This document shows positions 1,206 through 41,129 of a stretch of 41,129 bases of DNA, piece by piece. Source of the DNA: Escherichia phage vB_EcoS_P1338; sequence record PP882707.1. One strand, given 5' to 3'. The position numbers and the translations under genes were made by a program. The notes beneath the pieces were generated by a model. It worked only from the letters and a program-made list of their open reading frames with translations, was not told the DNA's origin and did not search any database. Position 1 is the stretch's first letter, and the number at the start of each line of letters is the position of its first letter.

Positions 1206-2966
1206 TTACCACTCAATGAAGCAGCTAGAGTCTCCGTCGTCCTCGTAGTAGATGTCCACGCCACCAACATCGTAGCTATGGATAGCATCACCACCAATGG
1301 TCTGTTTCTCCATGTGGTGTTCAAGGAACTCAAGGGTCATCTCTTCTTCACCTACACGGCTGTCCACAAGCATCCCTTCACGCAGGAACTCGATACCCAA
1401 TGCGATAGCATCAAGTCGGTCATCATGTGCCACAGCGCCTCGCTCACGGGTCATACGGGTCATCTGATAGAACGCACTATAGCGAACATCATGTTTCCCA
1501 TCAAGGTCACGAGCAGTCTGGTAGTCCTCACGGATAACCTCATCACGAATGACCAGCTTGTGTGCACCCATCAACGGTTCGATAGTATCGCAGATTCGCA
1601 TCTCCTTCATGCCTTTAGCACGGATTTCCTCTAAGGCACACTTGTGGTGCTTCAGGAGAATCGGAGAGAAAATCTTACCGAACATACCGTCACCGAAGTT
1701 GGACTCGTGGACTACTGTCTGTACCTTCCACTGCTTGGCCTTCTTAGCGAGCTTCTCTAGGGTAGCATCTTCGTAACCACCACGGAACCCACCGACTTCC
1801 ATCAAGTAGATATAACCGTTAAGTGAGTATAGTACTGCATACCCGGTCTCATCCTTACCACGACCACTTGGGTCAATGACCAGAATCTTAGACTGATACT
1901 CAGCGGTACGAGAAGAGCACGTATGGAACGCATGGATGTCATCACCCTTCAGACCAACGTTAGGAAGTTCCTCATTGCGGTTCTGACGGTTCGGCAACCA
2001 CTGGTAAGACAATGGGGCACGTTCAGGGTCCACAGCGCACACGATAGCGTCACGGAGGCGTAGCGGGTACTTCTCGGCATCACTAAGGTTCGGGTTAAGC
2101 ATGAACTGAAGCGTGTATCCAGCTTTACCATATTCGAGTTCACGTTCACGGAGGTCATCCATGTCGAATCGAACAGGGTCAGTAGGTTGACCACGAAGTA
2201 ACTCAAAGCCCTCATCATATTCAGCCTTAAGCATCGGAGCCAATCGGTCCCCATAGTAGAGAGCCTCAGCGTCATTACGTGGATACTGTGCTGGCCAGAT
2301 TACTGTGCTGTACCCTTTGTTATCCTCAAGTTCCTTATAGAGAGTCATCTCGGTTTGAGGTGTACCAAGGTAGATAACACGAGAGGTAGGCAGTGGCTTA
2401 AGTAACGCAGCAAACTCAGTTACCAACGTCCAGAGCTTCTCACGGGCAGAACTCGTAGAGCTATTACCGGGAACCTCAACGTCATCTGCAATGATGATGT
2501 CAGCACGGCTACCAGTTAACTGACCAGTGATACCCACAGACTTCACAGAGGGTGAGTGGTCTGGTTTCGCCAAGCCAACGTCGAAGCTAATCACAGAGTC
2601 ACGCTGTCCCGGTCGAGGTTTCAACTCAGAGAGGAACGGTAAGAGGTCGATGATGTTCTTGATGAAGATGGAGTTAGCATCCGCACGTTCCTTAGAGGCA
2701 GACACGATGAGCACCTTAAGTTGAGGGTCACGCCATAAGACCCACACGACGAACGCACAGGTGATAAAGGACTTGCCGATACCACGGAACGCCTGAAGGA
2801 TAAACTTCTTGTGGTCGCCGTTAGCGAGTGTACGTGCCATATCAATCTGACACTTGGTTGGTTTAGGTAAGTTAAGAGCCTTCCATAAGACGAACAAGAA
2901 AGCGACAAAATCACCCTTAAGTTGCGCAATGATTAACGCATTCTTAGCTTCTTGGGATTGTGACAT
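1206..2966 (-). CDS. gp19: terminase large subunit (DNA packaging protein B)
   Basis: 586 aa, same length as T7 gp19 and near-identical over long stretches by recollection ([19 protein letters not shown]..., [11 protein letters not shown]...); start overlaps the stop of the upstream spanin gene (ATGA). Confidence 0.97.
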
Positions 2967-3412
2967 TACTTAGCCTCCTTCTTAGTTTGCATTTCTTTGA
3001 TTGTATCTTGGAGCGCACGAATCCACGCATCCCCTCTTTGAGTTACTCCGATAAGACGCTTACTAAACTCTTCGTCAAGTTCGGCTCGACCATCAACGAG
3101 GCATCCACCGTTATCTTGGAGTTCTCGTGTGGTGGCTGATAGTTTGACGCGCAAGCGCTTACCATCGTTACGCAAATCATTAATGACCCTATCAGTGCTG
3201 CCCTCCAGCGCCGCAAGGTCTTCTTGGTATTGTCGTGAGATTTCGTTGATAGCAGCCTGTTTATTCTCAGTCGCCTTAACTTTCTTAATGTACTCATTGT
3301 GCACCTCCTGTTCCCATTTAGTGTTAGCTTTGTCATATCCGTGGTTATACGCAAGGGTAATTCCCAAGGCAAACGCAGCGATTATGGCGTAGCTCTTTAA
3401 ATTCTTGAGCAT
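2966..3412 (-). CDS. gp18.5: i-spanin (Rz-like lysis protein)
   Basis: 148 aa, N-terminal transmembrane segment then coiled-coil-like region; position and size match T7 gene 18.5; GGGAGG RBS. Confidence 0.85.
3043..3297 (-). CDS. gp18.7: o-spanin (Rz1-like lipoprotein) embedded in the +1 frame of the i-spanin gene
   Basis: internal ATG of track ORF 3043..3372; product [10 protein letters not shown]...SACAS... has a lipobox-like CAS motif and resembles T7 gp18.7 by recollection. Confidence 0.7.
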   Translation of the reverse strand: MSTLRKLRRLRINRLLSTKSHDNTKKTLRRWRAALIGSLMICVTMVSACASNYQPPHENSKITVDASLMVEPNLTKSLVSVLSE

Positions 3413-3469
3413 AACTACCCTCCCGTATTTTCAGATTTCACGTAGCGTTACCGTGAGTTGTGTTGAAAT

Positions 3470-3979: not shown

Positions 3980-4099
3980 AAAACCTCCAGTTTAAAAGCG
4001 GGTCGTCCGTGACCCAGAGTTGTTACCATACGTTGGTCAGCGTGTAGTTAGCCTCTACCTCCACAACCTTCGATGACTCAATACCATTCTACTGATAAA

Positions 4100-4121
4100 C
4101 TAACCCGCCGAAACGGGTTTT
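4100..4121. terminator. short GC hairpin (AACCCG-loop-CGGGTT) just downstream of gene 17; T-rich flank is on the plus strand
   Basis: perfect 6-bp inverted repeat; on the coding (minus) strand the U-tract is weak, on the plus strand it is followed by TTTTGTTGTT. Confidence 0.25.
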
Positions 4122-4133
4122 GTTGTTATAGTA

Positions 4134-6845
4134 TTAATCAGCGTAAAGCATTAAGAACATAATAAGCTCTTCATAACGGATTCCATACCGTACACCGGCT
4201 GGTTTGGTTACTACAACCCTTTCTAGCGTTTCCGGGTTAATGTTTACTTCAGTAGATTCTTCCCATACATCCTTACACCAGAATGCATAATCCTCTGGAT
4301 TAAGTCCATGTTTAGTAAGAATAGAGCCGACCGTTTGAGCACCAACACCGAAGTGAATACGTGCAGATGCTCCCCCCTTAAGTTCTATAGCGTCAGTAAA
4401 CTTGTAGCGAATAATATTCTTACGAATTTCATTAGCCGCATCTCTTTCCGCACTCTCATTCACTGCTGGGGTTTTTTTCTTCAGTGTTTCATCGGAAGTA
4501 ACAATGGTGCTTGAAGCAGCATAAACAGCACTCCACCTGTGGCCTGCATACCCCAGCACTGTAGAGTTATCGGCAGCAGGTAAAATAGCATTATACCCTT
4601 CAATAATGAGGTCACCATTAGGGCTACCAGAAAACGATTTACCATCATAACTAGTAAGGGTGATTCCCTTAGTGCCCTCAGTAGTTGTTAACATAATACC
4701 AGCATTGGTAGCACCCAAGAGCTGAATATCACTATTATCATTACGCAAATCCTGCACAGGTGCTTCAAGTACAGTTGACGTGAATTTCCATTTCGTATCA
4801 GAAAAAAGTTCGACCGGTTGCACGTCATCCTTCTGGTACATCATGGCTTTAACACCGGAAGTTTTACGTCTTACACCGATGGCGTTTGGTTGTGAGCCAG
4901 ACCAGTTAGATGAGAAGGTAAATCCATCAAATTCCACTACAGACTCATAAGGATTGCTGGTATCGTTATTGATTGGTTCTGTAATAAAAATCCATCCCCA
5001 GTCGAAATAGTTATTATAAGTCCCTACGTTAGCATCTATCTGATACGCACGGGTGCACACCTCCCCATAGTAACCGTAGAATCTCAGGTTCCCGGCAACT
5101 TGTGAGTCTGAGCTTACGGTTTTAACCACACGCACACCACACGGTACATCTGCTGGTCCAGTTGTTTTGGTTATATTCTCACAAGAACCACCAAACACAC
5201 GAAGTGAGTCCGTGCTTTCAATCCAGAACGCACAGTTTCCCGTTACGTGAATTGGGTTGTAAATAGTGATTCTGGTGTTGTTGTTGTCGCCTGAAACACT
5301 CCGGTTGAATCTAAACCCGCAGTCAACGTTTTCAAATACTGGATTTTTTATGGTGTGATAATATGCAGCACTATTAGCCCCAAAAACTGTTGGTCCCGGT
5401 TGCAGTAACACCCCTACAGAGACGTCTGTCGCTTTTGGGTTGTTTAGCTGACAAAACTGTTGCGATACACGTGCAGTAGTTTGTGTGAGGTCTTCCGGGC
5501 TTATTGCGTATGCCACTACTTTTGTGAAACCATCTGGATTTATTACCGCAGGGTTAGTTACGATGCAGAAATCATGGCTCATTCTTAAGCATGTGATGCC
5601 AGAAGCTCCCGCTACGATTGTTGTTCCGGTGAAATCAATATACCTTGTAGACGTAACATCCTGCGTATACGAGCCATCGAATTTCATTACAAGACTTTGT
5701 GTTATGCGATATCTCGCACCTACTCTTCCTGTTAATTTACCAAACGGCACAATCTCCAACCACGACAATGCCGCCAGCATCGCGGAGGTATCATTATTTA
5801 TCCCGTCGCCAATAGCACCGAACTCTTCAAATGACTTTACTGTCGTAGCCCGATGAGCAATCTGGTCAATTGTTGCACCATGCTTTGTTAGATCAGTTCT
5901 AATAGACGCATCACCAACACTAACCCACTTCCCTAATCCAATCCCACCGGAAGTTTCAGGAGTTGAACCAGCAGGGATGTTCTTTGGAAGCGTACCATCC
6001 CAGCGGTAATACTCACCCTCCTCTTCCCACAGTAGTACCTCGTTCCAGGTTATAACGTTGAAGCCTTTCTCGAAGGAGCGACGGGTAACATATCCAATTC
6101 GAGCAGATGCCTTGATACTCTCAGCGATTCGTCGTGCTTCATCCTCGCTATCCTTAGCGTTGCCAGCATAGCTACCAGCAGATGCTGCATATTGTCCAGA
6201 AGTATTCTTGAACTGCTCGGCTTCATTCCGGAATTCATTAGCCTCATCGCGCCATTGCTTTGCGTTCGTAGCGTGGGTGCTGGACTCGTTCTTAAAGCCC
6301 TCCGCTTTATTTCTGAAAGTCTCAGCCTCATTGCGGAACTGTAGGGCCTCATTACGTGCCTGCCATGAGTTCTGGTTCATGGTCTTAAGTTGACCAAACG
6401 GAACAGCGTCTAGGTCATCCACGGCGTTCGCTAGGTTCACGATACGACGACCACGTGCATCCAAGTGACCATCATTATTGACCCCAATGGTATCCGCAGT
6501 TAGGTCTCGTGCTTCTTCAGCAACGTGAAGCGTTTGAATCTGTGCAATGTTCAGGTCATATGCGCGAAGGATTGAGCCATCAGCAAAGTCAACCAGACGG
6601 TCTGTCGCGGAGGTGAAACGACGAATCTCAATGGAGTAATATCCATCAGCAGCCGTCCATGCACGAGTTGTAGTGATTTGTGTCTTAGTGGTGAACCGAT
6701 AGTCCTGATTTAGAACCAGTTCCTTACGGTCTTTACCAATTAGAGTTACCGTCACAAACTTACGCGCTAAGTATTCAAAGGTGATTGCAAAGTCCACAGC
6801 ACCTGTTAGCGGATAAGTCATTACGGTACGAATTTTAAGAGCCAT
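4134..6845 (-). CDS. gp17: tail fiber / tailspike: T7 gp17-like N-terminal anchor, beta-helix depolymerase-like central domain, C-terminal intramolecular chaperone-like domain
   Basis: 903 aa; first ~200 aa align with remembered T7 gp17 (FEYLARKF, RLVDFADGSILRAYDLN, VNNDGHLDARGRRIVNLANAVDD); from ~aa 335 FEEFGAIGDGINNDTSAMLAAL (pectate-lyase-type motif); near aa 784 SDETLKKK resembling the Ser-Lys autocleavage motif of tailspike C-terminal chaperones. Confidence 0.9.
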   Translation of the reverse strand: MALKIRTVMTYPLTGAVDFAITFEYLARKFVTVTLIGKDRKELVLNQDYRFTTKTQITTTRAWTAADGYYSIEIRRFTSATDRLVDFADGSILRAYDLNIAQIQTLHVAEEARDLTADTIGVNNDGHLDARGRRIVNLANAVDDLDAVPFGQLKTMNQNSWQARNEALQFRNEAETFRNKAEGFKNESSTHATNAKQWRDEANEFRNEAEQFKNTSGQYAASAGSYAGNAKDSEDEARRIAESIKASARIGYVTRRSFEKGFNVITWNEVLLWEEEGEYYRWDGTLPKNIPAGSTPETSGGIGLGKWVSVGDASIRTDLTKHGATIDQIAHRATTVKSFEEFGAIGDGINNDTSAMLAALSWLEIVPFGKLTGRVGARYRITQSLVMKFDGSYTQDVTSTRYIDFTGTTIVAGASGITCLRMSHDFCIVTNPAVINPDGFTKVVAYAISPEDLTQTTARVSQQFCQLNNPKATDVSVGVLLQPGPTVFGANSAAYYHTIKNPVFENVDCGFRFNRSVSGDNNNTRITIYNPIHVTGNCAFWIESTDSLRVFGGSCENITKTTGPADVPCGVRVVKTVSSDSQVAGNLRFYGYYGEVCTRAYQIDANVGTYNNYFDWGWIFITEPINNDTSNPYESVVEFDGFTFSSNWSGSQPNAIGVRRKTSGVKAMMYQKDDVQPVELFSDTKWKFTSTVLEAPVQDLRNDNSDIQLLGATNAGIMLTTTEGTKGITLTSYDGKSFSGSPNGDLIIEGYNAILPAADNSTVLGYAGHRWSAVYAASSTIVTSDETLKKKTPAVNESAERDAANEIRKNIIRYKFTDAIELKGGASARIHFGVGAQTVGSILTKHGLNPEDYAFWCKDVWEESTEVNINPETLERVVVTKPAGVRYGIRYEELIMFLMLYAD

Positions 6846-14276: not shown

Positions 14277-16658
14277 TTAGATACCAGAAGAGCGACGCAG
14301 GTAGTTACCTTCCCAGCCACAACCAATCACGTTAAGTGGGGTCGTGTGGTCGGAGATAATACGCACTTCGTTCAACTTGGCGTTACCAGACACGGGGAAC
14401 CGGAACTGCCCAGTACCAACGTTGAGTCCACCAGTGCGTAAGGCATTTGAACCCAACCTAGCTCCTGCCATGTCATAGCTGAAAAGACGTGAGGTGTTCT
14501 CTACTTCCACAACGAACGCACCAGAATCCTCATAGTTGACCCATGCGCGCCGAAGCTGTAAGCGACCAATGTCCTCGGTAGCTGTTGAGCCATCATCCTC
14601 TGTCTTCTTGATGAGGAACTTTGAGAACACATACCGAAAGTCAATAGCCAATCCAATGTACACCTTCTCACCCTCTCGGTTCCCATCAAGGACCAAGCGA
14701 GGTTCACCATTAGGCCATCCACCATGCGGCTCATCTAACCATGATACCTTACCATCCATCGCCACAATGTAGAACTTACCTAAATAGTTCTTCATTCCGT
14801 AGAATTGACTTGGATAGATAACAGTCTCATACGTGTCATCATCGTAGGAACCATAAGGGATTGTTATTTCCAGCTTGTTATCTATGTAGATGCGGTAAGG
14901 TTCTTCAGGGTAGTCAATGGAGTTCTTTGTGAAGTGTGCCCGTGCCATCCACGTATGGGACTGGTTGCGTAACAGAAGGTACATAGTGGAACCAATAGAA
15001 TCACAAGCCAATACAGTTACGTTACTCCCTAGTTCCCAATGAGACCACGACTGTTGCACATTTTCCTCATTCAAGTACAGAAATTTGTGCATGAAGATTT
15101 TGCTTGGGGCGTTTTCGGATAACACCGAAACGAAGTTCTCAGTGCCAGAGCCTCGAATGGAGAACACACCATTAGGAATGTAGCTAGGAACGTGAGCACT
15201 TATGTCCTCCGCAGACTTCACGGAGCTAACATCCTGTACAGCATAGTATCGGTTGATTGATGTATAGGATGCACGAGGTGACGCAAAGTAGACACCACGC
15301 CCAATACCAAAAGGTCTCGCCCTGTCTGACACATCGAACTCGGTCGTTAGGTTCAACTCAACTGACTTCGGTGAGAGGATACCAGAGGCAGATAATACGA
15401 ACTGTGCTTGGTCAGACCATAGGAGCAACTCTTCGGAGAACGGTACAGCATATTTAAGCGTACTGATTCGGTTGTGTGACACAGCAACGTCGATTGGGTC
15501 ATCATCGGATAGGTTGGCAACCGATGCAGGGAACAGTGAGAAATACTTGGATGTACGAGACATCACAATGTTTTCACCAGCAAGAAACCCTAAGCGGTTC
15601 CTGAAGAAGAACACATCGTTAATCCGCTGGTCTACGATAGACGGGTCGGGGTTAGTATTCATGTCACCACACTTGCGCTCATCCCATGGCAAGGCTTCCA
15701 TCTTAAAGGAACCATCGGCCTGTCGAATCAATGCGTGTGGCATGGTTGCCCCATTGAGTCCCTTCTGTACTCCCCATCCGGCTACTTCCTTCCACACTTT
15801 ACGTGCTGCATCGTACTGTACATAGAACTCATCGGAAGTCTTAGAGGTGTCGCCAACGATTTGTACGGAGTATCCATTAGGAGCCTCAGAGGGTAACTTA
15901 GTGAATGACTGGCTGGTGTGCATTACCGCAGACATCAACTGTCCACCATAACCATCCTCTACCTCGACCTTCCAGATTGGTTCGTCACCTCGTGACACAA
16001 TATGAATGAACCCAGCACCCTCGTTGACAGTCCATCCCCAAGTGTTTGCACCTCCTTCTCGAAGTAGCTGTGCCATCTTCTTAACGAGCCATTGTGCATC
16101 CGTCTGTTCAACTTCAGTGGCATTGGCACCATCAGCAATCTTATAGGACGCAGAGATACCATTCAGTCTAATCGTAAAGGTACGACCATACTGACCACCA
16201 CGGATGTTAATGAGACACTCACCGTCTTCTCGAATAGTGTAGATAGGGTCTTTGTTGGCTTGAACAACCTTAGAGCGGTTCACTACGAACGTGTAGTCTG
16301 CCACAGTTACCATCCTTAAGTCATCCCTAGGGTTAGCACAGTTAGCGTATGAAGTGTCACCATGTACAACATACTCACGCCCATTGAGGTCAAATACTTT
16401 GATACCGCTTCCAGTGAACACAACGTAATACTGTTCGACGCTGTCACGGTTTATTAGGTGAACTAAAGGTGCGCCACCAAGGAACCCAGCGTCACCAATA
16501 GTTTTCGTAAAGATGAAAGGTGGCCTCTTCTGGAGACCTTCAGTTTCAGACGACCATCCGTTAATCTGTTCAGCGCCCTGCTCGGGGAACCTTAAGATGT
16601 CTGGTTGTTGACTGATACCGCCTTTCAGGTTCTTGACGGATTGTGAAATAAGAGCCAT
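14277..16658 (-). CDS. gp12: tail tubular protein B
   Basis: track ORF 14277..16724 trimmed to the internal ATG giving MALISQSVKNLKGGISQQPDILR (T7 gp12 N-terminus); AAGGAGGT RBS before this ATG; 793 aa. Confidence 0.95.
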   Translation of the reverse strand: MALISQSVKNLKGGISQQPDILRFPEQGAEQINGWSSETEGLQKRPPFIFTKTIGDAGFLGGAPLVHLINRDSVEQYYVVFTGSGIKVFDLNGREYVVHGDTSYANCANPRDDLRMVTVADYTFVVNRSKVVQANKDPIYTIREDGECLINIRGGQYGRTFTIRLNGISASYKIADGANATEVEQTDAQWLVKKMAQLLREGGANTWGWTVNEGAGFIHIVSRGDEPIWKVEVEDGYGGQLMSAVMHTSQSFTKLPSEAPNGYSVQIVGDTSKTSDEFYVQYDAARKVWKEVAGWGVQKGLNGATMPHALIRQADGSFKMEALPWDERKCGDMNTNPDPSIVDQRINDVFFFRNRLGFLAGENIVMSRTSKYFSLFPASVANLSDDDPIDVAVSHNRISTLKYAVPFSEELLLWSDQAQFVLSASGILSPKSVELNLTTEFDVSDRARPFGIGRGVYFASPRASYTSINRYYAVQDVSSVKSAEDISAHVPSYIPNGVFSIRGSGTENFVSVLSENAPSKIFMHKFLYLNEENVQQSWSHWELGSNVTVLACDSIGSTMYLLLRNQSHTWMARAHFTKNSIDYPEEPYRIYIDNKLEITIPYGSYDDDTYETVIYPSQFYGMKNYLGKFYIVAMDGKVSWLDEPHGGWPNGEPRLVLDGNREGEKVYIGLAIDFRYVFSKFLIKKTEDDGSTATEDIGRLQLRRAWVNYEDSGAFVVEVENTSRLFSYDMAGARLGSNALRTGGLNVGTGQFRFPVSGNAKLNEVRIISDHTTPLNVIGCGWEGNYLRRSSGI

Positions 16659-16683
16659 TAGAGACCTCCTTAAGTTATTACGA

Positions 16684-17274
16684 TTAGCGAGACAGCAAAC
16701 CACCAGTGAAGGCATCACCGTCAAGCATGTTGAAGTTACCGAAGTCTAACTCGTATTCGGTGCACTGCATTTTGGCTTCCTGTTCCTCTTCAGCTAAGAC
16801 AGCATCAATCTCAGGGGCACCAAAGAATCGGTTGTTAAACTGACGAGCGGCCTTTGTGACAATCCAATGGCGGAAGCACTCAGGCATCTCATAGAACTCT
16901 CGCATTCGGATGATAGTCACAGTGATAGGGTCTTTGAAGACATCAGTGCGGTTCTCTCGGTCATACACATAGCCGCCACGGTTGACGTAAGCGGTAGTAC
17001 CTCCTTCAGAGAACACAGCAAGGTAGTCGGACATGTAGGGAATCAGACCGTTGAACATATCAGGTAGCAACTGTTGGCCTTCCTCGATGTTGAACGTCCA
17101 GCCCTTGGACTGAATCTGACGGTTAATCTTATTGAGTATTCGGCGAGCGTTAGCAACGTCAGCATTAGCATCACCCTCCAGAGTGGACACAGGCGGTTCA
17201 CCGATAGAGGCCAAGATGTCATTGACCGCATTCAACTCTTCGCCAGTCTCTAGGGTAGTCTCATAGGAACGCAT
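16684..17274 (-). CDS. gp11: tail tubular protein A
   Basis: 196 aa, same length as T7 gp11; [41 protein letters not shown] nearly identical by recollection. Confidence 0.95.
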
Positions 17275-17365: not shown

Positions 17366-17509
17366 TTACTGTTCAGCAGCCAGTTTCGCCGCTCTGTTAG
17401 CAGCACGAGTACGAGCAGCTTTCTGTTGTGGCGTTAGCTCTTGCTCAACTTCAGTAGGAGACTCAGTGTCCCCTACGAGTTTGCGAGAAGTTAAGCCGTT
17501 TTGAAAACC
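17366..17509 (-). other. capsid 10B-type -1 programmed frameshift site (G GTT TTC) and ~47-codon -1 frame extension
   Basis: GGTTTTC heptamer 5 codons before the capsid stop; the -1 frame stays open for ~47 codons and ends just before the terminator hairpin. Confidence 0.6.
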
Positions 17510-18105
17510 AGCGCACCTACTGCTTCAGGACGCAGACCACCGTGACCCATCGCGTACTTAGCGATAATCTGGTCAGCCTGATAGTTGGCACGACGAGCAC
17601 GTTCCAGCGCCATATCTTTCAACTTAACAGTACCAACGGCAGAGCGGTGGCAGAACAGACCGACCACATTGTTCAGAGCAACCTTATCATTGCCAGTAGC
17701 AGTCGCAGGGAATGCGTGTTTCTGTTCAGAAGGTGCATCTTCACGGTCATTACCAGCACCACCAGCGGTCAAATGCGGAACTTCAATAACTTCGAAGCCC
17801 ATGACGTTGCGGATAGAACCGGTAGACGGGTCAATCAGCGCCTGATAGTTTGCAGCGTTAGGCATCAGAGCCGCCAGAATCGCAGAGTAGTTATCAGGGG
17901 TGGTGTAGAAGGTACGGTCCGCAGACGGAACATAGTTCTTAGTCAGACGTGCACGAGCCAGAGTCAACTGTGCAATGATAGCCTGACCCAGCTTAACTTG
18001 GTCGCCTTGCAGGTCAGCCGCAGCGCCTACTTCCAGAACACTTGCAGTACCTAAGCCAGCGATGTTCTCGTTGGAAGCAGCCGGAAGGTTACACAATTTA
18101 GCCAT
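17491..18105 (-). CDS. gp10: major capsid protein, C-terminal segment (second of two ORFs)
   Basis: 204 aa; NENIAGLGTA...ILAALMPNAANY...RSAVGTVKL...ERARRANYQADQIIAKYAMGHGGLRPEA matches the T7 gp10 C-terminal two thirds by recollection. Confidence 0.9.
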   Translation of the reverse strand: MAKLCNLPAASNENIAGLGTASVLEVGAAADLQGDQVKLGQAIIAQLTLARARLTKNYVPSADRTFYTTPDNYSAILAALMPNAANYQALIDPSTGSIRNVMGFEVIEVPHLTAGGAGNDREDAPSEQKHAFPATATGNDKVALNNVVGLFCHRSAVGTVKLKDMALERARRANYQADQIIAKYAMGHGGLRPEAVGALVFKTA

Positions 18106-18467
18106 TTTTCGGAACGCACGTCATAGTGGTTCATTGCGTCTTCGATGTCGTAAATCAGAACGTCAGCAGTCAGCAGGCCATCAATGTTAATGGTCTTCTC
18201 AGTGTGCTTCATGTCTTTACGTTTGTCATCGAGGTTCTCACCCGGTTGCAGATAAGCAGCTTTGGTACGACCCAGCACAGGGAACTGCGCGGACTTACCG
18301 GACTGAATAGAACGCACGAGGTGTTTGTTCATAGTTACGGAGGTACGGGTAAATGCAGTCAGAACTTCACCGCCGAAGACCTTCAGGAACAGAGCCAGTT
18401 TATCACCAGCGCTCATGCCTTTACCTTGGTCCTTACCAATCTGTTGTCCACCAGTCATGTTAGCCAT
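18051..18467 (-). CDS. gp10: major capsid protein, N-terminal segment (first of two ORFs; last 18 codons are out-of-frame read-through)
   Basis: 138 aa; MANMTGGQQIGKDQGKG...DKLALFLKVFGGEVLTAF...DIEDAMNHYDVRSE matches the T7 gp10 N-terminus, then diverges (KWLNCVTFRLLPTRTSLA) after an A5 run. Confidence 0.9.
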   Translation of the reverse strand: MANMTGGQQIGKDQGKGMSAGDKLALFLKVFGGEVLTAFTRTSVTMNKHLVRSIQSGKSAQFPVLGRTKAAYLQPGENLDDKRKDMKHTEKTINIDGLLTADVLIYDIEDAMNHYDVRSEKWLNCVTFRLLPTRTSLA

Positions 18468-18614
18468 GTTGAATCTCCTTCTGTTGATTTATGATAAAAG
18501 TTTAAGTGTGTGAGGTACTACTTGAAACGAGTTGGTTCTCATTGTGTATCACTCAAAGGGAGATACATCCCATCTGGATAGGTCTACGAGCGCAGACATC
18601 GCAGGGTCTAAGTC

Positions 18615-18637
18615 TCTCCCAATAGTGAGTCGTATTA
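18615..18637 (-). promoter_or_regulatory. T7-type promoter upstream of the capsid gene (phi10)
   Basis: minus strand TAATACGACTCACTATTGGGAGA, 2 nt after the gene 9 stop. Confidence 0.85.
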
Positions 18638-24233: not shown

Positions 24234-24555
24234 GATATTTCTCCTTTGCTTCTAAGGTGATGACCTTCCGTTCTCGGTTAGTCTTGATTATATGTTCCCT
24301 CTTAGGGATACATTGTAGGTGCTCTATGTTACAGCACCCGCGATTCAGGCATAGATGGTCTATCTCATACCCTTCTGGTATCTTTCCGTGCCTTAACTCC
24401 CACACGAATCTGTGAAACATAAAGGCAAACTTAGTACCCTTTCGGGAAGACCCTATGCTATACCGGAAGTATCCATCTTGGTTCCGCTTATGGGAGACGC
24501 AGACAATACATCCAGTCGGCATAGTGTGAAACCTGAGCGTGGCAACGCCTCCCAT
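24220..24555 (-). CDS. gp5.3: HNH endonuclease at the T7 gene 5.3 position
   Basis: track ORF 24220..24585 trimmed to the ATG preceded by AAGGAGG; motifs CIVCVSH...GYFRY...EIDHLCLNRGCCNIEHL. Confidence 0.85.
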   Translation of the reverse strand: MGGVATLRFHTMPTGCIVCVSHKRNQDGYFRYSIGSSRKGTKFAFMFHRFVWELRHGKIPEGYEIDHLCLNRGCCNIEHLQCIPKREHIIKTNRERKVITLEAKEKYHGYY

Positions 24556-27110: not shown

Positions 27111-27150
27111 AGTGTTGTTCTCCCATTAGTTAGTTGAATAGATTTCATAC

Positions 27151-27200
27151 AAAAGTTAATCACGAAGGCCACCATTAAGATGACCTTTAGTTTAACTCTT
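27151..27200 (-). promoter_or_regulatory. conserved 50-nt hairpin element before gene 4.7, candidate RNase III site (R4.7-like); copy 1 of a 50-bp direct repeat
   Basis: aaaagttaatcacgaaggccaccattaagatgacctttagtttaactctt; imperfect long stem with internal loop; second copy at 34101..34150 differs at 1 nt. Confidence 0.55.
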
Positions 27201-34061: not shown

Positions 34062-34100
34062 GATGGAACTCCTTTAGTGTGTGTCGGTTATTAAGTAATC

Positions 34101-34150
34101 AAAAGTTAATCACAAAGGCCACCATTAAGATGACCTTTAGTTTAACTCTT
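34101..34150 (-). promoter_or_regulatory. conserved 50-nt hairpin element in the ligase leader, candidate RNase III site (R1.3-like); copy 2 of the 50-bp repeat
   Basis: aaaagttaatcacaaaggccaccattaagatgacctttagtttaactctt, 49/50 identical to 27151..27200. Confidence 0.55.
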
Positions 34151-34171: not shown

Positions 34172-34441
34172 CTTCCAGTGCTTCATATCACTGTGAACCT
34201 TGCGGAGCCATTCAGTCTGTGCATTACAGCGAACGTCTTCGTCTGACTGTTCGAAACACTTAGCGGTCAGCATTAAGCCATTCCGTAAGACCACTCGAAG
34301 TGTCTCTCCTGCGACCATTCGTCGCTGTGCGAAGTCCTCATAACGATAAGTCTCAACGACCACATTTGCATCGTGGTCTTCTTTAAGTCTCTCGATAGCG
34401 TCTTTGTATGCCATTAAGTTACCACTGTATAAGCGACCCAT
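34169..34441 (-). CDS. gp1.2: small protein at the T7 gene 1.2 position (dGTPase inhibitor in T7)
   Basis: 90 aa; MGRLYSGNL N-terminus and C-terminal WK as in remembered T7 gp1.2. Confidence 0.85.
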   Translation of the reverse strand: MGRLYSGNLMAYKDAIERLKEDHDANVVVETYRYEDFAQRRMVAGETLRVVLRNGLMLTAKCFEQSDEDVRCNAQTEWLRKVHSDMKHWK

Positions 34442-34572
34442 TAGAGTGCCTCCTTCCAGCAGCGTTTATGTGCACGTGTTCGTAATGGTTTATTAAACTT
34501 GCGACCCTTAGTTGCCTCGAAGTCATGAGCGTTACGGTTGGAACGTTTGGTCATCTTTTCTAAGTTACGCAT
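34441..34572 (-). CDS. gp1.1: small basic protein at the T7 gene 1.1 position
   Basis: 43-codon ORF found by hand: MRNLEKMTKRSNRNAHDFEATKGRKFNKPLRTRAHKRCWKEAL, near-identical to remembered T7 gp1.1; stop overlaps the gene 1.2 ATG (TAATG). Confidence 0.8.
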   Translation of the reverse strand: MRNLEKMTKRSNRNAHDFEATKGRKFNKPLRTRAHKRCWKEAL

Positions 34573-34632
34573 AATGTTGTTTCCTCTTAGAGTTAGAACT
34601 TAAAGTTATCTTAAAGTTTAGGAAGCCCATAG

Positions 34633-34655
34633 GCTCCCAATAGTGAGTCGTATTA
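34633..34655 (-). promoter_or_regulatory. T7-type promoter just downstream of the RNAP gene (phi1.1-like)
   Basis: minus strand TAATACGACTCACTATTGGGAGC. Confidence 0.8.
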
Positions 34656-34662
34656 GATTTCG

Positions 34663-37314
34663 TTAGGCAAACGCAAAGTCTGACTTCAGGATTTCTTGGA
34701 GGTCGAGAGAGCCTTTAGCTGGCATCTCAGGCATCTTGTCTAACTGTGATTCGTGTAACTGCTCGGCGAATTGCTCATAGAAGTCTGCAAGTACATCGTT
34801 CTCTTCGTAAGTGTTGACCATCGTTTCACGCACTGCTTTAAACAGGTTGCCAGCATCAGCAGGGATAGTACCAAAGGAGTCATGAATCAGTGCAAAGGAT
34901 TCCACACCGTAGACCTCATTGGAGCGGACCACAGTCATGCGCAGGTGGCTACCATCCATTGAGTGAACAAAGTTAGGTGCGATGCCTGACTCCTGTTTAC
35001 GAGCATCAATCCCGCTATCCTTGTTGGTGTTCACGGTAGGCTGTAGACGAATCTGGCCTAAGAACATTAGGTTCAAGCGGGTCTGTACTGGCTTCTTGTA
35101 TTCCTGCCAGACCGGGAAGCCATCAGGAGTTACCCAATGTACTGCGCAACGCTTGCGAAGAACCTCTTTGGTCTTCTTGTCCTTGACTTCAGCAGCTAGG
35201 AGTTTAGCCGCAGACTTCAGCCAGTTCATTGCTTCAACAGCAGCGACCACAGTCACTGTTACCGATTCCCAAATCAGTTTAGCCATATAGCCAGCCGCTT
35301 GGTTCGGTTGAGTGAACATCAAGCCTTTACCATCGTCGATAGCTGGCTGAATGGTGTCCTCTAGCACTTGGTCACGGAAGCCGTACTCCTTGGACCCGTA
35401 AGCCAACGTCATGACCGAACGCTTAGTGACCTTGCGAGTCACACCATATGCCAACCATTGACCCGCTAACTCTTTCGTTCCCAGCTTGAGCTTCTCAGTG
35501 ATTTCACCAGTGTCCTTGTTTGTCACTGTTTCCACTTCGTTATCAGTGCCGTTGATTACCGCTCCGCGGAGCATCTCGTTAACACGGTCAGCAACAATGC
35601 GATAGATGTCTTGGACTTCCTTGCTTGGCAACAGGTTAACCGCACGACCACCTACTTCATCACGAAGCATCGCGGAGAAGTGCTGAATACCAGAGCAGCT
35701 ACCATCGAACGCCAGCGGCAGAGAGCAGTTGTAGTTCATGCCGTGGTGTTGAACTCCAGCATACTCGAAGCAGAACGCGAGGAAGCAGAACGGAGAGTCC
35801 TGTTCGGCCCACCAAGTGTTGGCAATCGGGTCAGCCGCAACGCTCATTATGTTCTCATGGTTGTCCTCAATGAACTTAATGCGTTCTGCGAAGTCCACCT
35901 TGTCCACACCAGCAGTGTTAGCACCATGAATCTTCAGCCAGTAGTACCCATCGACACCAATCGGTTTACCTTTAGCGAGCGTCAGCAAGCCTTTGGTCAT
36001 GTCGTTGCCTTGCGGGTTAAACATTGGAACTGCATACACTCGACCGCGCCAGTCCATGTTCATCGGGAACCAGATAGCTTTAAACTGTGCGAACTTATTG
36101 GCTTGCCCTAACATGAACTCCATGCTCATGCGACGAGACACGCGAGCCTTCTCTTTGCGGTAGATTGCGGAGGCCGCTTTCTTCCACGCTTTGAGTGATG
36201 CCTCGTTCGTGTCGATGTCTTCAGGTTTGACAGGCAGTTCACCACGTTCGAGAGCAGGTACATCGTCAACCGGGCAATGCTTCCAGTTCACAATCTCGTT
36301 GACCACTGCCAGAACCTTCTTGTTAATCTTCCAAGGAGTATTCTGTGCGATGTTCACCGCCTTGTAAACTTCAGGCATGTACACGTCGTTGTAACGCTCA
36401 AGTCCCTTCTTGGAACCAGTACGAACCAGAGAGAGCGGCTTGCGACCAGCAGCCCAATAGCCACCACCAACCGGACTCGTCCAAGGCTTCGGGGGGACCA
36501 CGCAAGGTTGATACATCGGAGCGATTGCAGCCAGTGCACCAGCACGCTTAGATAACAGGTCAACGTATTGTTCGGTCAGTTGGATGTACTCGCCATCCTT
36601 CTCAACGTTACCAGCAAACGGTCGGTGTAACTCAACGAGACCAGTAGACCCAATGAGCAGTTCCAACATGCGTACACCAACATGAATTGACTCTTCAGGT
36701 GTCCATGTGGTCCACTTGGTTTGCAGTTGACCAGCATCTAACATCTTACCTTCAACCGCTTGCATGAATGCCTTCTTGTAGACGATACCTACGCGCTTGT
36801 TGAGTGCTTCCTGTACATGGTTCTTAAAGTGCTTCGCTTCTTCGTCACGGATGCGACCAAAACGTAGCTCATCTTCAATACTGCGACCAATCTTAGTGGC
36901 GACCGATTGAAGGTTCGTGTATTCCTCTTTGGTCAAGCAAGCCAGTGTGACCTTCAGTGTGATGAATGCAGCAGCTTCAGGTGCAACCTTCTGTACCAAA
37001 TTGTAGGCCACTGGACGCTTGCCACGCTTAGCTTCCACTTCGGTGAACCAAGTGTTCCATGCTTCAATGAACTTAGGTGCGAGAGATGACAGGAGCGGTT
37101 TAGCCACTGCGTTATCACCGAACTCACCCGCTTTGATTTGACGTTCCATTGCCTTAAGGAAACGCTTCTCGCCTTCAGTGTGCGCTTCGTGTTCTAACTC
37201 AAGCTGCGTAGCTGCAAGCTGTGCGCCGTAATGGTCAGCCAGAATGTTGTACGGCTGAATTGCGTTAGCGATGTCAGAAAAGTCATTCTTTGGTGCATTG
37301 ATTACGTTAGTCAT
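34663..37314 (-). CDS. gp1: DNA-directed RNA polymerase (single-subunit, T7 RNAP type)
   Basis: 883 aa, same length as T7 RNAP and collinear throughout; palm and specificity-loop blocks conserved (NTNKDSGIDARKQESGIAPNFVHS, ALIHDSFGT, ending SDFAFA). Confidence 0.99.
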   Translation of the reverse strand: MTNVINAPKNDFSDIANAIQPYNILADHYGAQLAATQLELEHEAHTEGEKRFLKAMERQIKAGEFGDNAVAKPLLSSLAPKFIEAWNTWFTEVEAKRGKRPVAYNLVQKVAPEAAAFITLKVTLACLTKEEYTNLQSVATKIGRSIEDELRFGRIRDEEAKHFKNHVQEALNKRVGIVYKKAFMQAVEGKMLDAGQLQTKWTTWTPEESIHVGVRMLELLIGSTGLVELHRPFAGNVEKDGEYIQLTEQYVDLLSKRAGALAAIAPMYQPCVVPPKPWTSPVGGGYWAAGRKPLSLVRTGSKKGLERYNDVYMPEVYKAVNIAQNTPWKINKKVLAVVNEIVNWKHCPVDDVPALERGELPVKPEDIDTNEASLKAWKKAASAIYRKEKARVSRRMSMEFMLGQANKFAQFKAIWFPMNMDWRGRVYAVPMFNPQGNDMTKGLLTLAKGKPIGVDGYYWLKIHGANTAGVDKVDFAERIKFIEDNHENIMSVAADPIANTWWAEQDSPFCFLAFCFEYAGVQHHGMNYNCSLPLAFDGSCSGIQHFSAMLRDEVGGRAVNLLPSKEVQDIYRIVADRVNEMLRGAVINGTDNEVETVTNKDTGEITEKLKLGTKELAGQWLAYGVTRKVTKRSVMTLAYGSKEYGFRDQVLEDTIQPAIDDGKGLMFTQPNQAAGYMAKLIWESVTVTVVAAVEAMNWLKSAAKLLAAEVKDKKTKEVLRKRCAVHWVTPDGFPVWQEYKKPVQTRLNLMFLGQIRLQPTVNTNKDSGIDARKQESGIAPNFVHSMDGSHLRMTVVRSNEVYGVESFALIHDSFGTIPADAGNLFKAVRETMVNTYEENDVLADFYEQFAEQLHESQLDKMPEMPAKGSLDLQEILKSDFAFA

Positions 37315-39727: not shown

Positions 39728-40080
39728 TACTCTCCATCCTCCTCGTACTCTTCGACTTCCTCAAGATACTCGTTCAGTAAGTCTTCTGCGTCCTCCCAAA
39801 TGTCGATTGTGAGTTGCTCATAGATACGCGCTTGCAGGATACGGATAACGTCTTTGGTGTCCGGCATCAGACCAGAGTCTTCGAACTCAAGGTCAATGCC
39901 TTCGCTTGCCATTACACTGAAAATGTCGCTGTAGTAGTGCGGAACAGCATTATCAGCCACCATATGCACTGCATCGTGCAGGTCATCAGCGTCACGAATG
40001 TCATCATAACGGATGTTTTCTTTCAGCATTTCGTAAGCGTGGTCGAAAACGTTGTGATAAGTCATGTTAGACATAGCCAT
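39727..40080 (-). CDS. gp0.3: Ocr, DNA-mimic anti-restriction protein (inhibits type I R-M; also BREX in T7)
   Basis: 117 aa, same length as T7 Ocr and near-identical by recollection (MAMSNMTY...[44 protein letters not shown]). Confidence 0.95.
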
Positions 40081-40104
40081 TGTGTGTTACCTCATTGTGT
40101 GTGA

Positions 40105-40160
40105 TTAGTAGTGAATATCATAAAGGGCACCTTGCGATACCCTTGAGTTATCCGCTACGT
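40105..40160 (-). promoter_or_regulatory. RNase III processing site upstream of gene 0.3 (R0.3-like)
   Basis: minus strand TAGCGGATAACTCAAGGGTATCGCAAGGTGCCCTTTATGATATTCACTA matches the remembered T7 R0.3 region almost base for base. Confidence 0.7.
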
Positions 40161-40426
40161 GTGTACACTCAGTTACCGTGTCAACGATGTCGCCACACTC
40201 TACCATAACAACCATTCTTATGGTCTAAGGAATTACGGCGGGTTTTGTATGTCAGTTTTACTTTCATGGTAGTTCCTATTTTGTAGGTTTGCCTTACAGA
40301 CTACTTTGATTTGTTTACCGTGTCTGCATACTCCAGTAAACGGTGCTATCCGTAGCGAGTATCCGGCAGGTTTCGCAGTTCCTATCCGTTCTCTCTTTTT
40401 GCTGACTCGTTGTCAGCTTGTGGTAC

Positions 40427-40839: not shown

Positions 40840-41129
40840 AATAGTGGTAACGATAGGTGTCTATAGACTGAAGGCACCGACTGAAGGTTAACATAAGGAG
40901 AGGCAGCCATAAGGATAGACATAAGGTTAGCGTAGCTAATAAGAGGTGACATAAGGTGTTAACTCTAAGAGGAAACATAAGGTGATTACAGATAGGGACA
41001 CAGAGAGGACTACATATAGTGGTCATAATGTCCCCCCACACACCATATCTAGTGGTAACACCCAAAGTTAACCCAATGTCTCACATAAGGTTAGCGGAGC
41101 TAACAAGGATTGACATTAAGTGAACCATA
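40840..41129. repeat. array of short direct repeats (ACATAAGG units) at the phage left end, including a block resembling the T7 left terminal region
   Basis: acataagg recurs at least six times; minus-strand GGGTGTTACC...CTCTCTGTGTCCCTATCTGT matches remembered T7 left-end sequence. Confidence 0.45.

What the first reader, a model, noticed from the sequence alone, without database searches (positions are those of the whole stretch)
18051..18110. Major capsid gene is split into two ORFs by a -1 frameshift at an A5 run
The N-terminal 120 residues (18108..18467) and the C-terminal 204 residues (17491..18102) both align with T7 gp10, but they are in different frames. The join is at GAAAAATGG, plus-strand TTTTT at about 18105..18109: after DVRSE the first ORF runs out of frame for 18 codons to a stop, while the second begins at the ATG formed inside AAATGG with no RBS of its own. 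Inserting one A would give a continuous ~325-aa capsid protein. By my recollection T7 also has about 20 extra residues between these two blocks, so a deletion may be involved. Possibilities are a homopolymer sequencing error, a genuine inactivating mutation in a defective or complemented phage, or, least likely, ribosomal slippage on the A run.
Basis: partly seen in the sequence, partly recalled or inferred. Interest (0 to 1): 0.7.

Follow-up and report, generated by a model that had tools for sequence, protein, structure and literature searches.

The report
Capsid gene gap from vector-screen editing
The capsid gene of this T7-like phage is broken by a clean 58-base gap, not a one-base slip, and the gap matches the stretch that NCBI-style vector screening would flag as T7 gene 10 from cloning vectors, so it is most likely a sequence-editing artefact and not biology.

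Summary
The split is real in the sequence. The minus-strand capsid gene reads as ORF1 (18467..18051) and ORF2 (18105..17491), in frames one base apart, joined at GAAAAATGG. The cause is not an A-run length error. All five closest relatives carry 58 more bases here, and the A5 run is only the new junction (GAA|AAATGG). The gap removes 20 near-invariant residues (YTAQLGESLALAADGAVLAE). Every other gene tested is intact. With VecScreen's unusual BLAST scoring (+1/-5), the nearly identical gene of phage P151 gives a 59-nt match to T7 gene 10 (score 29). That match starts exactly at the window's left breakpoint and ends 1 nt past the right one. It is the only match of 25 or more in the first 780 nt of the gene, the part I recall expression vectors carrying. 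No other scoring scheme reproduces that boundary. Three deposited Klebsiella phage genomes (RCIP0016, RCIP0029, RCIP0109) carry two or three capsid-gene gaps each, and those gaps match such hits in the same way. The most likely explanation is that a span flagged as vector contamination was cut out of the assembled sequence (confidence about 0.8). A real mutation, a homopolymer error and ribosomal slippage are all poorly supported. Biological interest is low. The practical value is as a warning about database quality.

The parts
18615..18637 (-). T7-type late promoter (phi10 equivalent), TAATACGACTCACTATTGGGAGA, upstream of the capsid gene
   Evidence: Read directly. It is one of 7 copies of this core in the window (family D1). 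Its VecScreen-type score against T7 phi10 is 21, below the level I recall as reportable.
18475..18478 (-). Shine-Dalgarno GGAG of the capsid gene, within AAGGAGATTCAACATG
   Evidence: Identical in all five relatives.
18108..18467 (-). 5' part of the capsid gene in its native frame: codons 1-120, ending ...NHYDVRSE
   Evidence: 100% protein identity to P151 capsid residues 1-120. Matches Pfam PF21703 positions 1-60.
18107..18108 (-). Junction of the 58-nt gap (GAA|AAATGG). The relatives have TATACCGCTCAGTTGGGTGAGTCTCTGGCTCTGGCTGCTGATGGTGCGGTTCTGGCTG between these two bases.
   Evidence: Alignment A1 columns 375-432. The placement is unique, with no microhomology. The missing segment is absent from the rest of the window.
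18051..18107 (-). Out-of-frame tail of ORF1: 18 codons (KWLNCVTFRLLPTRTSLA) plus a TAG stop. It is a by-product of the gap, not a real coding frame.
   Evidence: No protein on record shares this tail.
17491..18105 (-). 3' part of the capsid gene (ORF2, 204 aa plus stop). Its ATG is the internal Met141 codon of the intact gene, not a true start.
   Evidence: 99.5% identity to P151 residues 140-344. Matches PF21703 positions 81-279. The relatives read ...AVLAEMAKLCNL through this ATG.
17503..17509 (-). GGTTTTC, the conserved T7-type gene 10A/10B programmed -1 frameshift site. This is the genuine slippery site of the gene and is unrelated to the gap.
   Evidence: Identical in all relatives. T7's own record annotates a joined 10B CDS.
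17366..17502 (-). 10B-type C-terminal extension, open in the -1 frame (..GFQNGLTSRKLVGDTESPTEVEQELTPQQKAARTRAANRAAKLAAEQ*)
   Evidence: Translation: 47 codons from 17509, then TAA at 17368-17366.
17534..17574 (-). Retained 41-nt match to T7 gene 10 nt 955-995 (VecScreen-type score 29). It lies beyond codon 260.
   Evidence: The same match is retained in RCIP0016, RCIP0029 and RCIP0109. This is the basis for inferring that the screening library holds only the 5' part of gene 10.

Best explanation
The 58-nt gap is an editing artefact, not a property of the phage.

Inferred sequence of events: the assembled genome was screened for vector contamination with NCBI VecScreen/UniVec or an equivalent using the same BLAST scoring (+1 match, -5 mismatch). 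A large 5' part of T7 gene 10 sits in expression vectors (pGEMEX and pET-3x/17xb types), so a genuine stretch of this phage's own capsid gene, 54/59 identical to T7, was reported as an internal 'moderate' vector match. The flagged span was then cut out of the sequence and the ends were joined. That removed 19 codons plus 1 nt, shifted the frame and, by chance, created an A5 run and an apparent internal ATG start. The real phage almost certainly has an intact capsid gene of about 344 codons, like P151.

Shown here: the gap, its exact ends, their coincidence with the VecScreen-type match, the dependence on that scoring scheme, the intactness of all other genes, and the same signature in three other deposited genomes.

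Inferred: that the screening library contains gene 10 nt 1 to about 780, that matches of 25 or more are the ones acted on, and that a person or script did the cutting.
For: 1. The gap is 58 nt relative to five relatives. The P151 gene is otherwise 99.8% identical.
2. P151 against T7 gene 10 under VecScreen parameters gives an HSP at alignment columns 528-586 (59 nt, 54/59, score 29). The window lacks columns 528-585. I estimate the chance of a random deletion matching this well at about 2e-5.
3. Only +1/-5 scoring gives column 528 as the start. With +1/-4 the start is 462, with +1/-3 it is 335, and with default scoring the match spans the whole gene.
4. This is the only match of 25 or more in gene 10 nt 1-780. 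The retained matches there score 16-22. The phi10 promoter and leader score 21.
5. Klebsiella phages RCIP0029, RCIP0109 and RCIP0016 (OR532823, OR532903, OR532810) have 2-3 gaps each in the capsid gene. The 93-, 26- and 138-nt gaps equal the HSP extents computed on intact relatives exactly (scores 45-51, 20-26 and 36), and a 44-nt gap does so to within 1 column. All retained matches in nt 1-780 score 24 or less.
6. The match at nt 955-995 (score 29-35) is retained in all four genomes. This fits a library holding only the 5' part of gene 10.
7. All other P151 proteins map to the window full-length in one frame, so the sequence is not generally poor.
8. Hundreds of related records, including later RCIP submissions, have the intact segment.
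9. The blastn parameter set is documented in PMC10172123. pGEMEX vectors encode gene 10 fusions (PMC10693968).
10. There is no microhomology and no hairpin at the breakpoints.
Against: - The right end is 1 nt short of the computed match: 58 nt were removed, not 59. An off-by-one slice on the record's plus strand would explain this, but that is conjecture.
- I could not inspect UniVec, so the presence and extent of gene 10 in it rests on memory (first 260 codons in pET-3x, pET-17xb and pGEMEX).
- VecScreen's score classes (internal strong 30 or more, moderate 25-29, weak 23-24) are also from memory.
- The window's true ancestral sequence in the gap is unknown. P151 is a proxy.
- One RCIP gap (44 nt) scores only 18-20 on the proxy sequences.
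- The source record, its history and its reads were not available.
Confidence: 0.8

Rival explanations
1. A different processing artefact: reads or k-mers matching vector or T7 sequences were filtered before assembly, or an assembler or consensus caller collapsed a low-coverage hole, producing the gap without any deliberate excision of a reported span.
For: The gap ends lie at T7-identical stretches. Only this gene is affected.
Against: - The gap extents equal whole +1/-5 HSPs that include 5-17 internal mismatches, not exact k-mer runs.
- The longest exact run shared by P151 and T7 inside the window's gap is only 20 nt.
- Read filtering would not give base-exact HSP boundaries in four genomes.
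Confidence: 0.08
2. A genuine 58-bp deletion in a defective phage genome that is maintained by complementation from co-infecting wild-type phage or a helper host.
For: As written, the sequence cannot encode a capsid protein. Deletions do arise in T7-like phages. The junction is not contradicted by any read data available here.
Against: - The breakpoints coincide with a bioinformatic match boundary that has no biological meaning.
- There is no microhomology or hairpin at the ends.
- The same kind of gap, several per gene, occurs in three other deposited isolates.
- The rest of the genome is intact.
- The junction is absent from IMG/VR and JGI metagenome contigs, and the ORF products are not on record.
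- A 58-bp loss gives no plausible replication advantage (inference).
Confidence: 0.08
3. A homopolymer-length sequencing error: the true sequence has A6 where the record shows A5.
For: One added A would restore a single ORF. Ordinary 1-nt frameshifts do occur in deposited capsid genes, for example LZQQ01000005.
Against: - The relatives have no A run at this site. The A5 run is formed from two sequences that lie 58 nt apart in every relative.
- The A6 product would still lack 20 near-invariant residues.
- Pfam profile positions 61-80 are missing.
Confidence: 0.01
4. Programmed -1 ribosomal frameshifting, or transcriptional slippage, on the A5 run joins the two ORFs into a functional capsid protein.
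For: The frame relation is -1, and a tRNA-Lys could re-pair on A AAA. T7-like capsid genes do use -1 frameshifting, but at their 3' end.
Against: - There is no X XXY YYZ heptamer in the zero frame (C GAA AAA).
- There is no downstream structure (z = -0.21).
- The site does not exist in the relatives.
- Five A's are, from general knowledge, too few for efficient transcriptional slippage.
- The product would lack YTAQLGESLALAADGAVLAE, which lies in a long helix conserved in solved T7-family capsids.
Confidence: 0.01

Closest known systems
VecScreen/UniVec false positives on sequences biologically related to the source of a vector segment (the problem addressed by Schaffer et al. 2018, VecScreen_plus_taxonomy, as cited in PMC10978663)
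   Same: A genuine genomic segment is reported as vector because the vector segment came from a relative (T7). The +1/-5 scoring defines the reported span.
   Different: Here the consequence appears to be physical removal of the span from a deposited or processed genome, which breaks an essential gene. I could not read the 2018 paper, so I do not know whether T7-like phages are discussed there.
Capsid-gene gaps in Klebsiella phages RCIP0016, RCIP0029 and RCIP0109 (GenBank OR532810, OR532823, OR532903)
   Same: Internal gaps in gene 10 whose ends equal VecScreen-type matches to T7 gene 10. The main gap ends 2 nt from the window's right breakpoint. The match at nt 955-995 is retained.
   Different: They belong to a different genus (Przondovirus-like, not Berlinvirus-like). 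They have 2-3 gaps per gene of 26-138 nt, some in frame. Their ends are exact, while the window is 1 nt short at one end.
T7 gene 10A/10B programmed -1 frameshift (G GUU UUC near the 3' end of gene 10)
   Same: Same gene and the same direction of shift. The real site is conserved in this window at 17509-17503, with an open 47-codon extension.
   Different: It lies about 600 nt downstream of the finding. It is conserved in all relatives and adds a C-terminal extension. The A5 junction has none of these properties.
Ordinary single-base frameshift errors in deposited T7-like capsid genes, for example contig LZQQ01000005.1
   Same: The capsid gene is split into two abutting ORFs in a database record.
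   Different: That case is a 1-nt loss with nothing else missing. The window lacks 58 nt.

Membership tests
T7 Gp10A-like major capsid protein gene (Pfam PF21703) | Sequence match to the family profile | tested here: met
   ORF1 E = 1.2e-27 (profile positions 1-60). ORF2 E = 1.3e-66 (profile positions 81-279). 99.5-100% identity to the P151 capsid protein.
T7 Gp10A-like major capsid protein gene (Pfam PF21703) | One continuous reading frame covering the whole profile | tested here: not met
   Profile positions 61-80 are absent and the two halves are in different frames. As written, this is a broken copy of a family member.
Excision of a VecScreen-flagged 'vector' span | Gap ends equal the ends of a +1/-5 BLAST match to a vector-borne sequence | tested here: met
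   The left end is exact and the right end is 1 nt short (columns 528-585 against HSP 528-586). Other scoring schemes do not reproduce the left end.
Excision of a VecScreen-flagged 'vector' span | The removed match is in a reportable score class and all retained matches to the vector-borne part fall below it | tested here: met
   Removed: score 29. Retained within gene 10 nt 1-780: 16-22. Promoter and leader: 21. The class limits (25 or more) come from memory of the NCBI documentation.
Excision of a VecScreen-flagged 'vector' span | The same signature in independent records | tested here: met
   Four distinct gaps in RCIP0016, RCIP0029 and RCIP0109 equal HSP extents. Retained matches score 24 or less. 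A fifth gap, 120 nt in RCIP0109 (columns 468-587), matches an HSP only at its right end.
Excision of a VecScreen-flagged 'vector' span | The screening library actually contains T7 gene 10 nt 364-422 | not testable with these tools
   UniVec is not available here. Indirect support: pGEMEX encodes gene 10 fusions, a gene 10 fusion construct is present in nr (P0044), and the match at nt 955-995 is retained in all four genomes.
Excision of a VecScreen-flagged 'vector' span | Raw reads or record history showing the intact segment | not testable with these tools
   The source record was not identified. It is not in the INPHARED set, IMG/VR or JGI contigs.
Programmed -1 ribosomal frameshift site | Slippery heptamer X XXY YYZ in the zero frame | tested here: not met
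   The zero frame reads TCC GAA AAA TGG, so the heptamer would be C GAA AAA.
Programmed -1 ribosomal frameshift site | Downstream stimulatory RNA structure | tested here: not met
   MFE -23.6 kcal/mol against a shuffle mean of -23.0, z = -0.21.
Programmed -1 ribosomal frameshift site | Conservation of the site in relatives | tested here: not met
   No relative has the A5 run or the frame change.
Homopolymer-length sequencing error | A difference of 1-2 nt within a homopolymer that relatives also have | tested here: not met
   The difference is 58 nt, and the run is created by the junction.
Natural deletion by slipped mispairing | A short direct repeat at the two breakpoints, or a hairpin bringing them together | tested here: not met
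   There is no shared base at the breakpoints. DNA fold of the ancestral region gives z = +0.49.

The most novel reading that the evidence does not exclude
The most novel biological reading not strictly excluded is that the 58-bp gap is real and the genome is a capsid-defective 'cheater' T7-like phage, packaged in capsids supplied by a co-infecting relative, with its breakpoints matching the T7-identity block by coincidence. A separate, non-biological novelty is that vector screening may be systematically causing segments to be cut out of T7-like capsid genes in public records. I did not find this described in the papers I could search.
Probability: 0.06. Interest if true: 0.45.

Novelty: not a real feature. 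Interest (0 to 1): 0.15.

Why it matters
Biologically it matters little. The phage almost certainly has a normal capsid gene, and nothing new about frameshifting or split capsids follows from this.

Practically it is a useful warning.
- T7-like phage genomes contain stretches identical enough to vector-borne T7 gene 10 to be reported as vector contamination. Cutting those spans out silently breaks the major capsid gene in deposited records.
- I found the same signature in at least three GenBank genomes.
- Such records will mislead gene callers, capsid-based taxonomy and marker searches, pseudogene or 'defective phage' counts, and any scan for recoding sites.
- A simple check can detect and repair these cases: compare gap ends with +1/-5 matches to T7 gene 10.

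Tried and rejected
- **Missing segment elsewhere in the window:** searched for the 58 nt with up to 3 mismatches and found none. There is also no second capsid locus.
- **Other records with the same lesion:** exact look-ups of both ORF products found nothing. The junction is absent from IMG/VR (with a 0-30 nt spacer) and from JGI metagenome contigs. A 45-70 nt spacer search returned only the intact Shigella phage A7 gene.
- **Source genome:** looked for it with a tail-fibre 50-mer in IMG/VR and with both halves of the window against deposited phages. There was no near-identical record; the best match is about 92% identity.
- **Natural deletion mechanism:** looked for a hairpin or microhomology at the breakpoints and found none.
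- **K-mer read filtering:** my first idea for the artefact was exact k-mer read filtering against T7. Exact runs (k = 17-31) explain the ends only partly. I replaced this with whole +1/-5 HSPs, which fit exactly.
- **P0002 / LZQQ01000005:** suspected a fourth example, but it is an ordinary 1-nt frameshift.
- **Literature:** the search for the structural name of the missing helix was unhelpful. The VecScreen score classes and the 260-codon extent could not be documented from the papers held.
- **Structure model:** the model of a truncated homolog has low confidence (mean pLDDT 50), so I used it only for local helix propensity.
- **Rfam:** nothing in the window reached a gathering score.

Full report
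**What is in the sequence**

The window's reverse complement is a complete T7-like (Berlinvirus-like) genome. It has T7-type promoters (TAATACGACTCACTATTGGGA) and T7 gene order.

The capsid gene lies on the minus strand, behind a promoter (18637-18615) and an AAGGAG ribosome-binding site. It reads as two ORFs:
- ORF1, 18467..18051, 138 aa. It is capsid-like for 120 residues and then has an 18-codon out-of-frame tail.
- ORF2, 18105..17491, 204 aa.

Pfam places ORF1 on positions 1-60 and ORF2 on positions 81-279 of the Gp10A-like profile. Twenty profile positions are therefore missing, and the frames differ by -1.

**The cause is a 58-nt gap, not a one-base slip**

I aligned the gene with the five closest deposited relatives: P151, vB_YenP_WW1, VB_Ship_A7, P694 and pO103. 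All five carry 58 more bases, TATACCGCTCAGTTGGGTGAGTCTCTGGCTCTGGCTGCTGATGGTGCGGTTCTGGCTG, between ..TCCGAA and AAATGGC...
- Apart from this gap, the window differs from P151 at two positions in the gene.
- The A5 run is made from two A's on the left side and three on the right. No relative has it.
- The gap has a unique placement with no shared bases at the ends. The ancestral DNA forms no hairpin that would bring the ends together (z = +0.49).
- The missing bases are not elsewhere in the window.
- The gap removes residues 121-140 of the P151 protein, YTAQLGESLALAADGAVLAE. These are almost invariant against solved T7-family capsids (7Y23, and 2XVR/3J7V-X).
- The residues fall inside a long predicted helix in a low-confidence model (mapped).
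- Adding one A, or a -1 slip, would give a 325-aa protein reading ...DVRSEKMAKLCN... that still lacks this segment.

**The rest of the genome is sound**

All other P151 proteins with a counterpart map to the window in a single frame, most of them over their full length. Examples are DNA polymerase 704/704, portal, gp16 1315/1315 and terminase 586/586. Only the capsid gene is split. The record is therefore not generally error-ridden.

**Nothing else in public data carries this junction**

- Neither ORF product is on record.
- The junction is absent from IMG/VR and JGI metagenome contigs.
- No near-identical genome is among deposited phages; the best is about 92% identical.

**The unexpected lead**

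A homolog search with ORF1 returned truncated 'major capsid proteins' from deposited complete genomes of Klebsiella phages RCIP0029, RCIP0109 and RCIP0016.

Their DNA was aligned with intact relatives. Each has two or three internal gaps in the capsid gene, at positions shared between genomes: 44, 93 or 120, 26 and 138 nt. The 93- and 120-nt gaps end 2 nt from the window's right breakpoint.

Several lesions per copy of an essential gene, recurring in independent plaque-forming isolates, are not plausible as biology.

**Test of a processing artefact**

T7 gene 10 is carried by expression vectors; pGEMEX fusions are documented in PMC10693968. I compared intact relatives with T7 gene 10.

Exact k-mer runs touched the gap ends but did not fully explain them. 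I then used the BLAST settings of NCBI VecScreen (-reward 1 -penalty -5 -gapopen 3 -gapextend 3 -evalue 700 -searchsp 1750000000000; the parameter set is quoted in PMC10172123). With these, the match extents reproduce the gaps:

| Genome(s) | Gap (alignment columns) | Match on intact relative | Score |
|---|---|---|---|
| RCIP0029, RCIP0016 | 495-587 (93 nt) | 495-587 | 45-51 |
| RCIP0029, RCIP0109 | 735-760 (26 nt) | 735-760 | 20-26 |
| RCIP0109, RCIP0016 | 804-941 (138 nt) | 804-941 | 36 |
| RCIP0016 | 260-303 (44 nt) | 261-304 | 20 |
| Window | 528-585 (58 nt) | 528-586 on P151 (54/59 identical) | 29 |

RCIP0109's 120-nt gap (468-587) shares only its right end with the 495-587 match.

For the window, the left end is exact and the right end is one base short. 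By my estimate, a random deletion would fit this well about 2 times in 100,000.

**Predictions that held**

- In all four genomes, every retained match within gene 10 nt 1-780 scores 24 or less. In the window the scores are 16-22.
- The window's match to the phi10 promoter and leader scores 21.
- The removed match is the only one of 25 or more in that part of the window's gene.
- A match at gene 10 nt 955-995 (score 29-35) is kept in all four genomes. This fits a screening library that holds only the 5' part of gene 10. From memory, pET-3x, pET-17xb and pGEMEX carry the first 260 codons.
- The left boundary depends on the scoring. It is column 528 only with +1/-5. It is 462 with +1/-4, 335 with +1/-3, and the whole gene aligns with default settings.
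- Hundreds of related Klebsiella phage records, including later RCIP submissions, contain the intact segment.

From memory of the NCBI documentation, internal VecScreen matches are classed as strong at 30 or more, moderate at 25-29 and weak at 23-24. The pattern 'removed at 25 or more, kept at 24 or less' fits action on strong and moderate hits.

**Best explanation (confidence about 0.8)**

A genuine part of the phage's capsid gene was reported as vector contamination and cut out of the assembled sequence. That shifted the frame and, by accident, created the A5 run and an apparent internal start.

Weak points:
- The one-base discrepancy at the right end. An off-by-one slice on the record's plus strand would produce it, but this is conjecture.
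- I could not inspect UniVec, the source record or the reads.
- P151 serves as a proxy for the lost bases.
- One RCIP gap scores only 18-20 on the proxies.

**Rivals**

- A read-level or assembler artefact (0.08) does not explain base-exact HSP boundaries that include internal mismatches.
- A real deletion in a complemented, defective phage (0.08) would need its breakpoints to coincide by chance with a purely computational boundary. It also has no mechanistic footprint.
- A homopolymer error (0.01) is contradicted.
- Ribosomal or transcriptional slippage (0.01) has no heptamer, no downstream structure (z = -0.21) and no conservation, and its product would lack a conserved core segment.

**Comparison with what is known**

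The gene belongs to the T7 gp10A family, but the copy as written is broken. The genuine recoding site of this gene, the 10A/10B -1 frameshift at GGTTTTC, is conserved about 600 nt downstream (17509-17503), with a 47-codon extension open in the -1 frame. It has nothing to do with the finding.

The underlying problem is a vector-screen false positive on a sequence related to the biological source of a vector segment. That is a recognised class of problem (Schaffer et al. 2018, cited in PMC10978663; I could not read that paper). An ordinary single-base frameshift in a deposited capsid gene looks quite different (LZQQ01000005).

**Verdict**

This is not a real biological feature, and its interest is low (0.15). 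The useful outcome is a specific, checkable warning about the quality of T7-like phage records, together with a simple diagnostic for such cases.

Noticed in passing
L008 (OR532823.1, RCIP0029) 2501-3413; L009 (OR532903.1, RCIP0109) 2501-3248; L010 (OR532810.1, RCIP0016) 2243-3157: Three deposited Klebsiella phage genomes each have 2-3 internal gaps (26-138 nt) in the major capsid gene. The gap ends equal VecScreen-type matches to T7 gene 10, and the gene is annotated there as fragments. Later submissions from the same series (RCIP0154, RCIP0165) are intact.
   Followed up: yes
window 17366-17509 (minus strand): The T7-type 10A/10B programmed -1 frameshift site GGTTTTC is conserved, and the -1 frame stays open for 47 codons (GFQNGLTSRKLVGDTESPTEVEQELTPQQKAARTRAANRAAKLAAEQ*). 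The phage therefore probably makes a minor capsid protein 10B.
   Followed up: partly
window 27150-27200 and 34100-34150: A 51-nt direct repeat, 98% identical, with copies 6950 nt apart. On the minus (transcribed) strand each copy folds into a long interrupted hairpin (z = -2.5 and -4.7). The second copy directly follows a T7-type promoter. They resemble T7 RNase III processing sites. There is no Rfam match.
   Followed up: partly
window 647, 6888, 14223, 18612, 19600, 22531, 34146 (minus strand): Seven copies of a T7-type promoter core with T where T7 has A at position -1 (CACTATTGGGA, against CACTATAGGGA in T7). This single change keeps each promoter's VecScreen-type score against T7 phi10 at 16-21.
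   Followed up: partly
window about 3980-6845 (minus strand; reverse-complement coordinates 34285-37150): The tail-fibre gene matches P151 only over its first 121 residues or so (57% identity). The rest is unrelated to P151, and a 50-mer from it is absent from IMG/VR. This is a host-range module swap typical of the group.
   Followed up: no
window about 762-1154 and 24310-24534 (minus strand; reverse-complement coordinates 39976-40368 and 16596-16820): Two weak matches (27-29% identity) to the P151 HNH endonuclease, at positions that differ from P151: after the terminase gene and after the DNA polymerase gene. They are probably mobile homing-endonuclease genes and may account for the window's extra length (41.1 kb against 39-40.5 kb).
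   Followed up: no
L014 (LZQQ01000005.1, 38,484-bp contig in a WGS assembly) 2001-3016: A T7-like phage contig inside a bacterial WGS assembly. Its capsid gene is split by a plain 1-nt deletion (GCTGC-CTGATG). This is an ordinary frameshift error and a useful contrast to the 58-nt gap.
   Followed up: yes
window 40919-40958 and 41083-41122: A 40-nt direct repeat (83% identity, copies 164 nt apart) near the genome's left end, reminiscent of the short repeat arrays next to the T7 terminal repeats. No long terminal direct repeat was found between the two ends of the window.
   Followed up: no
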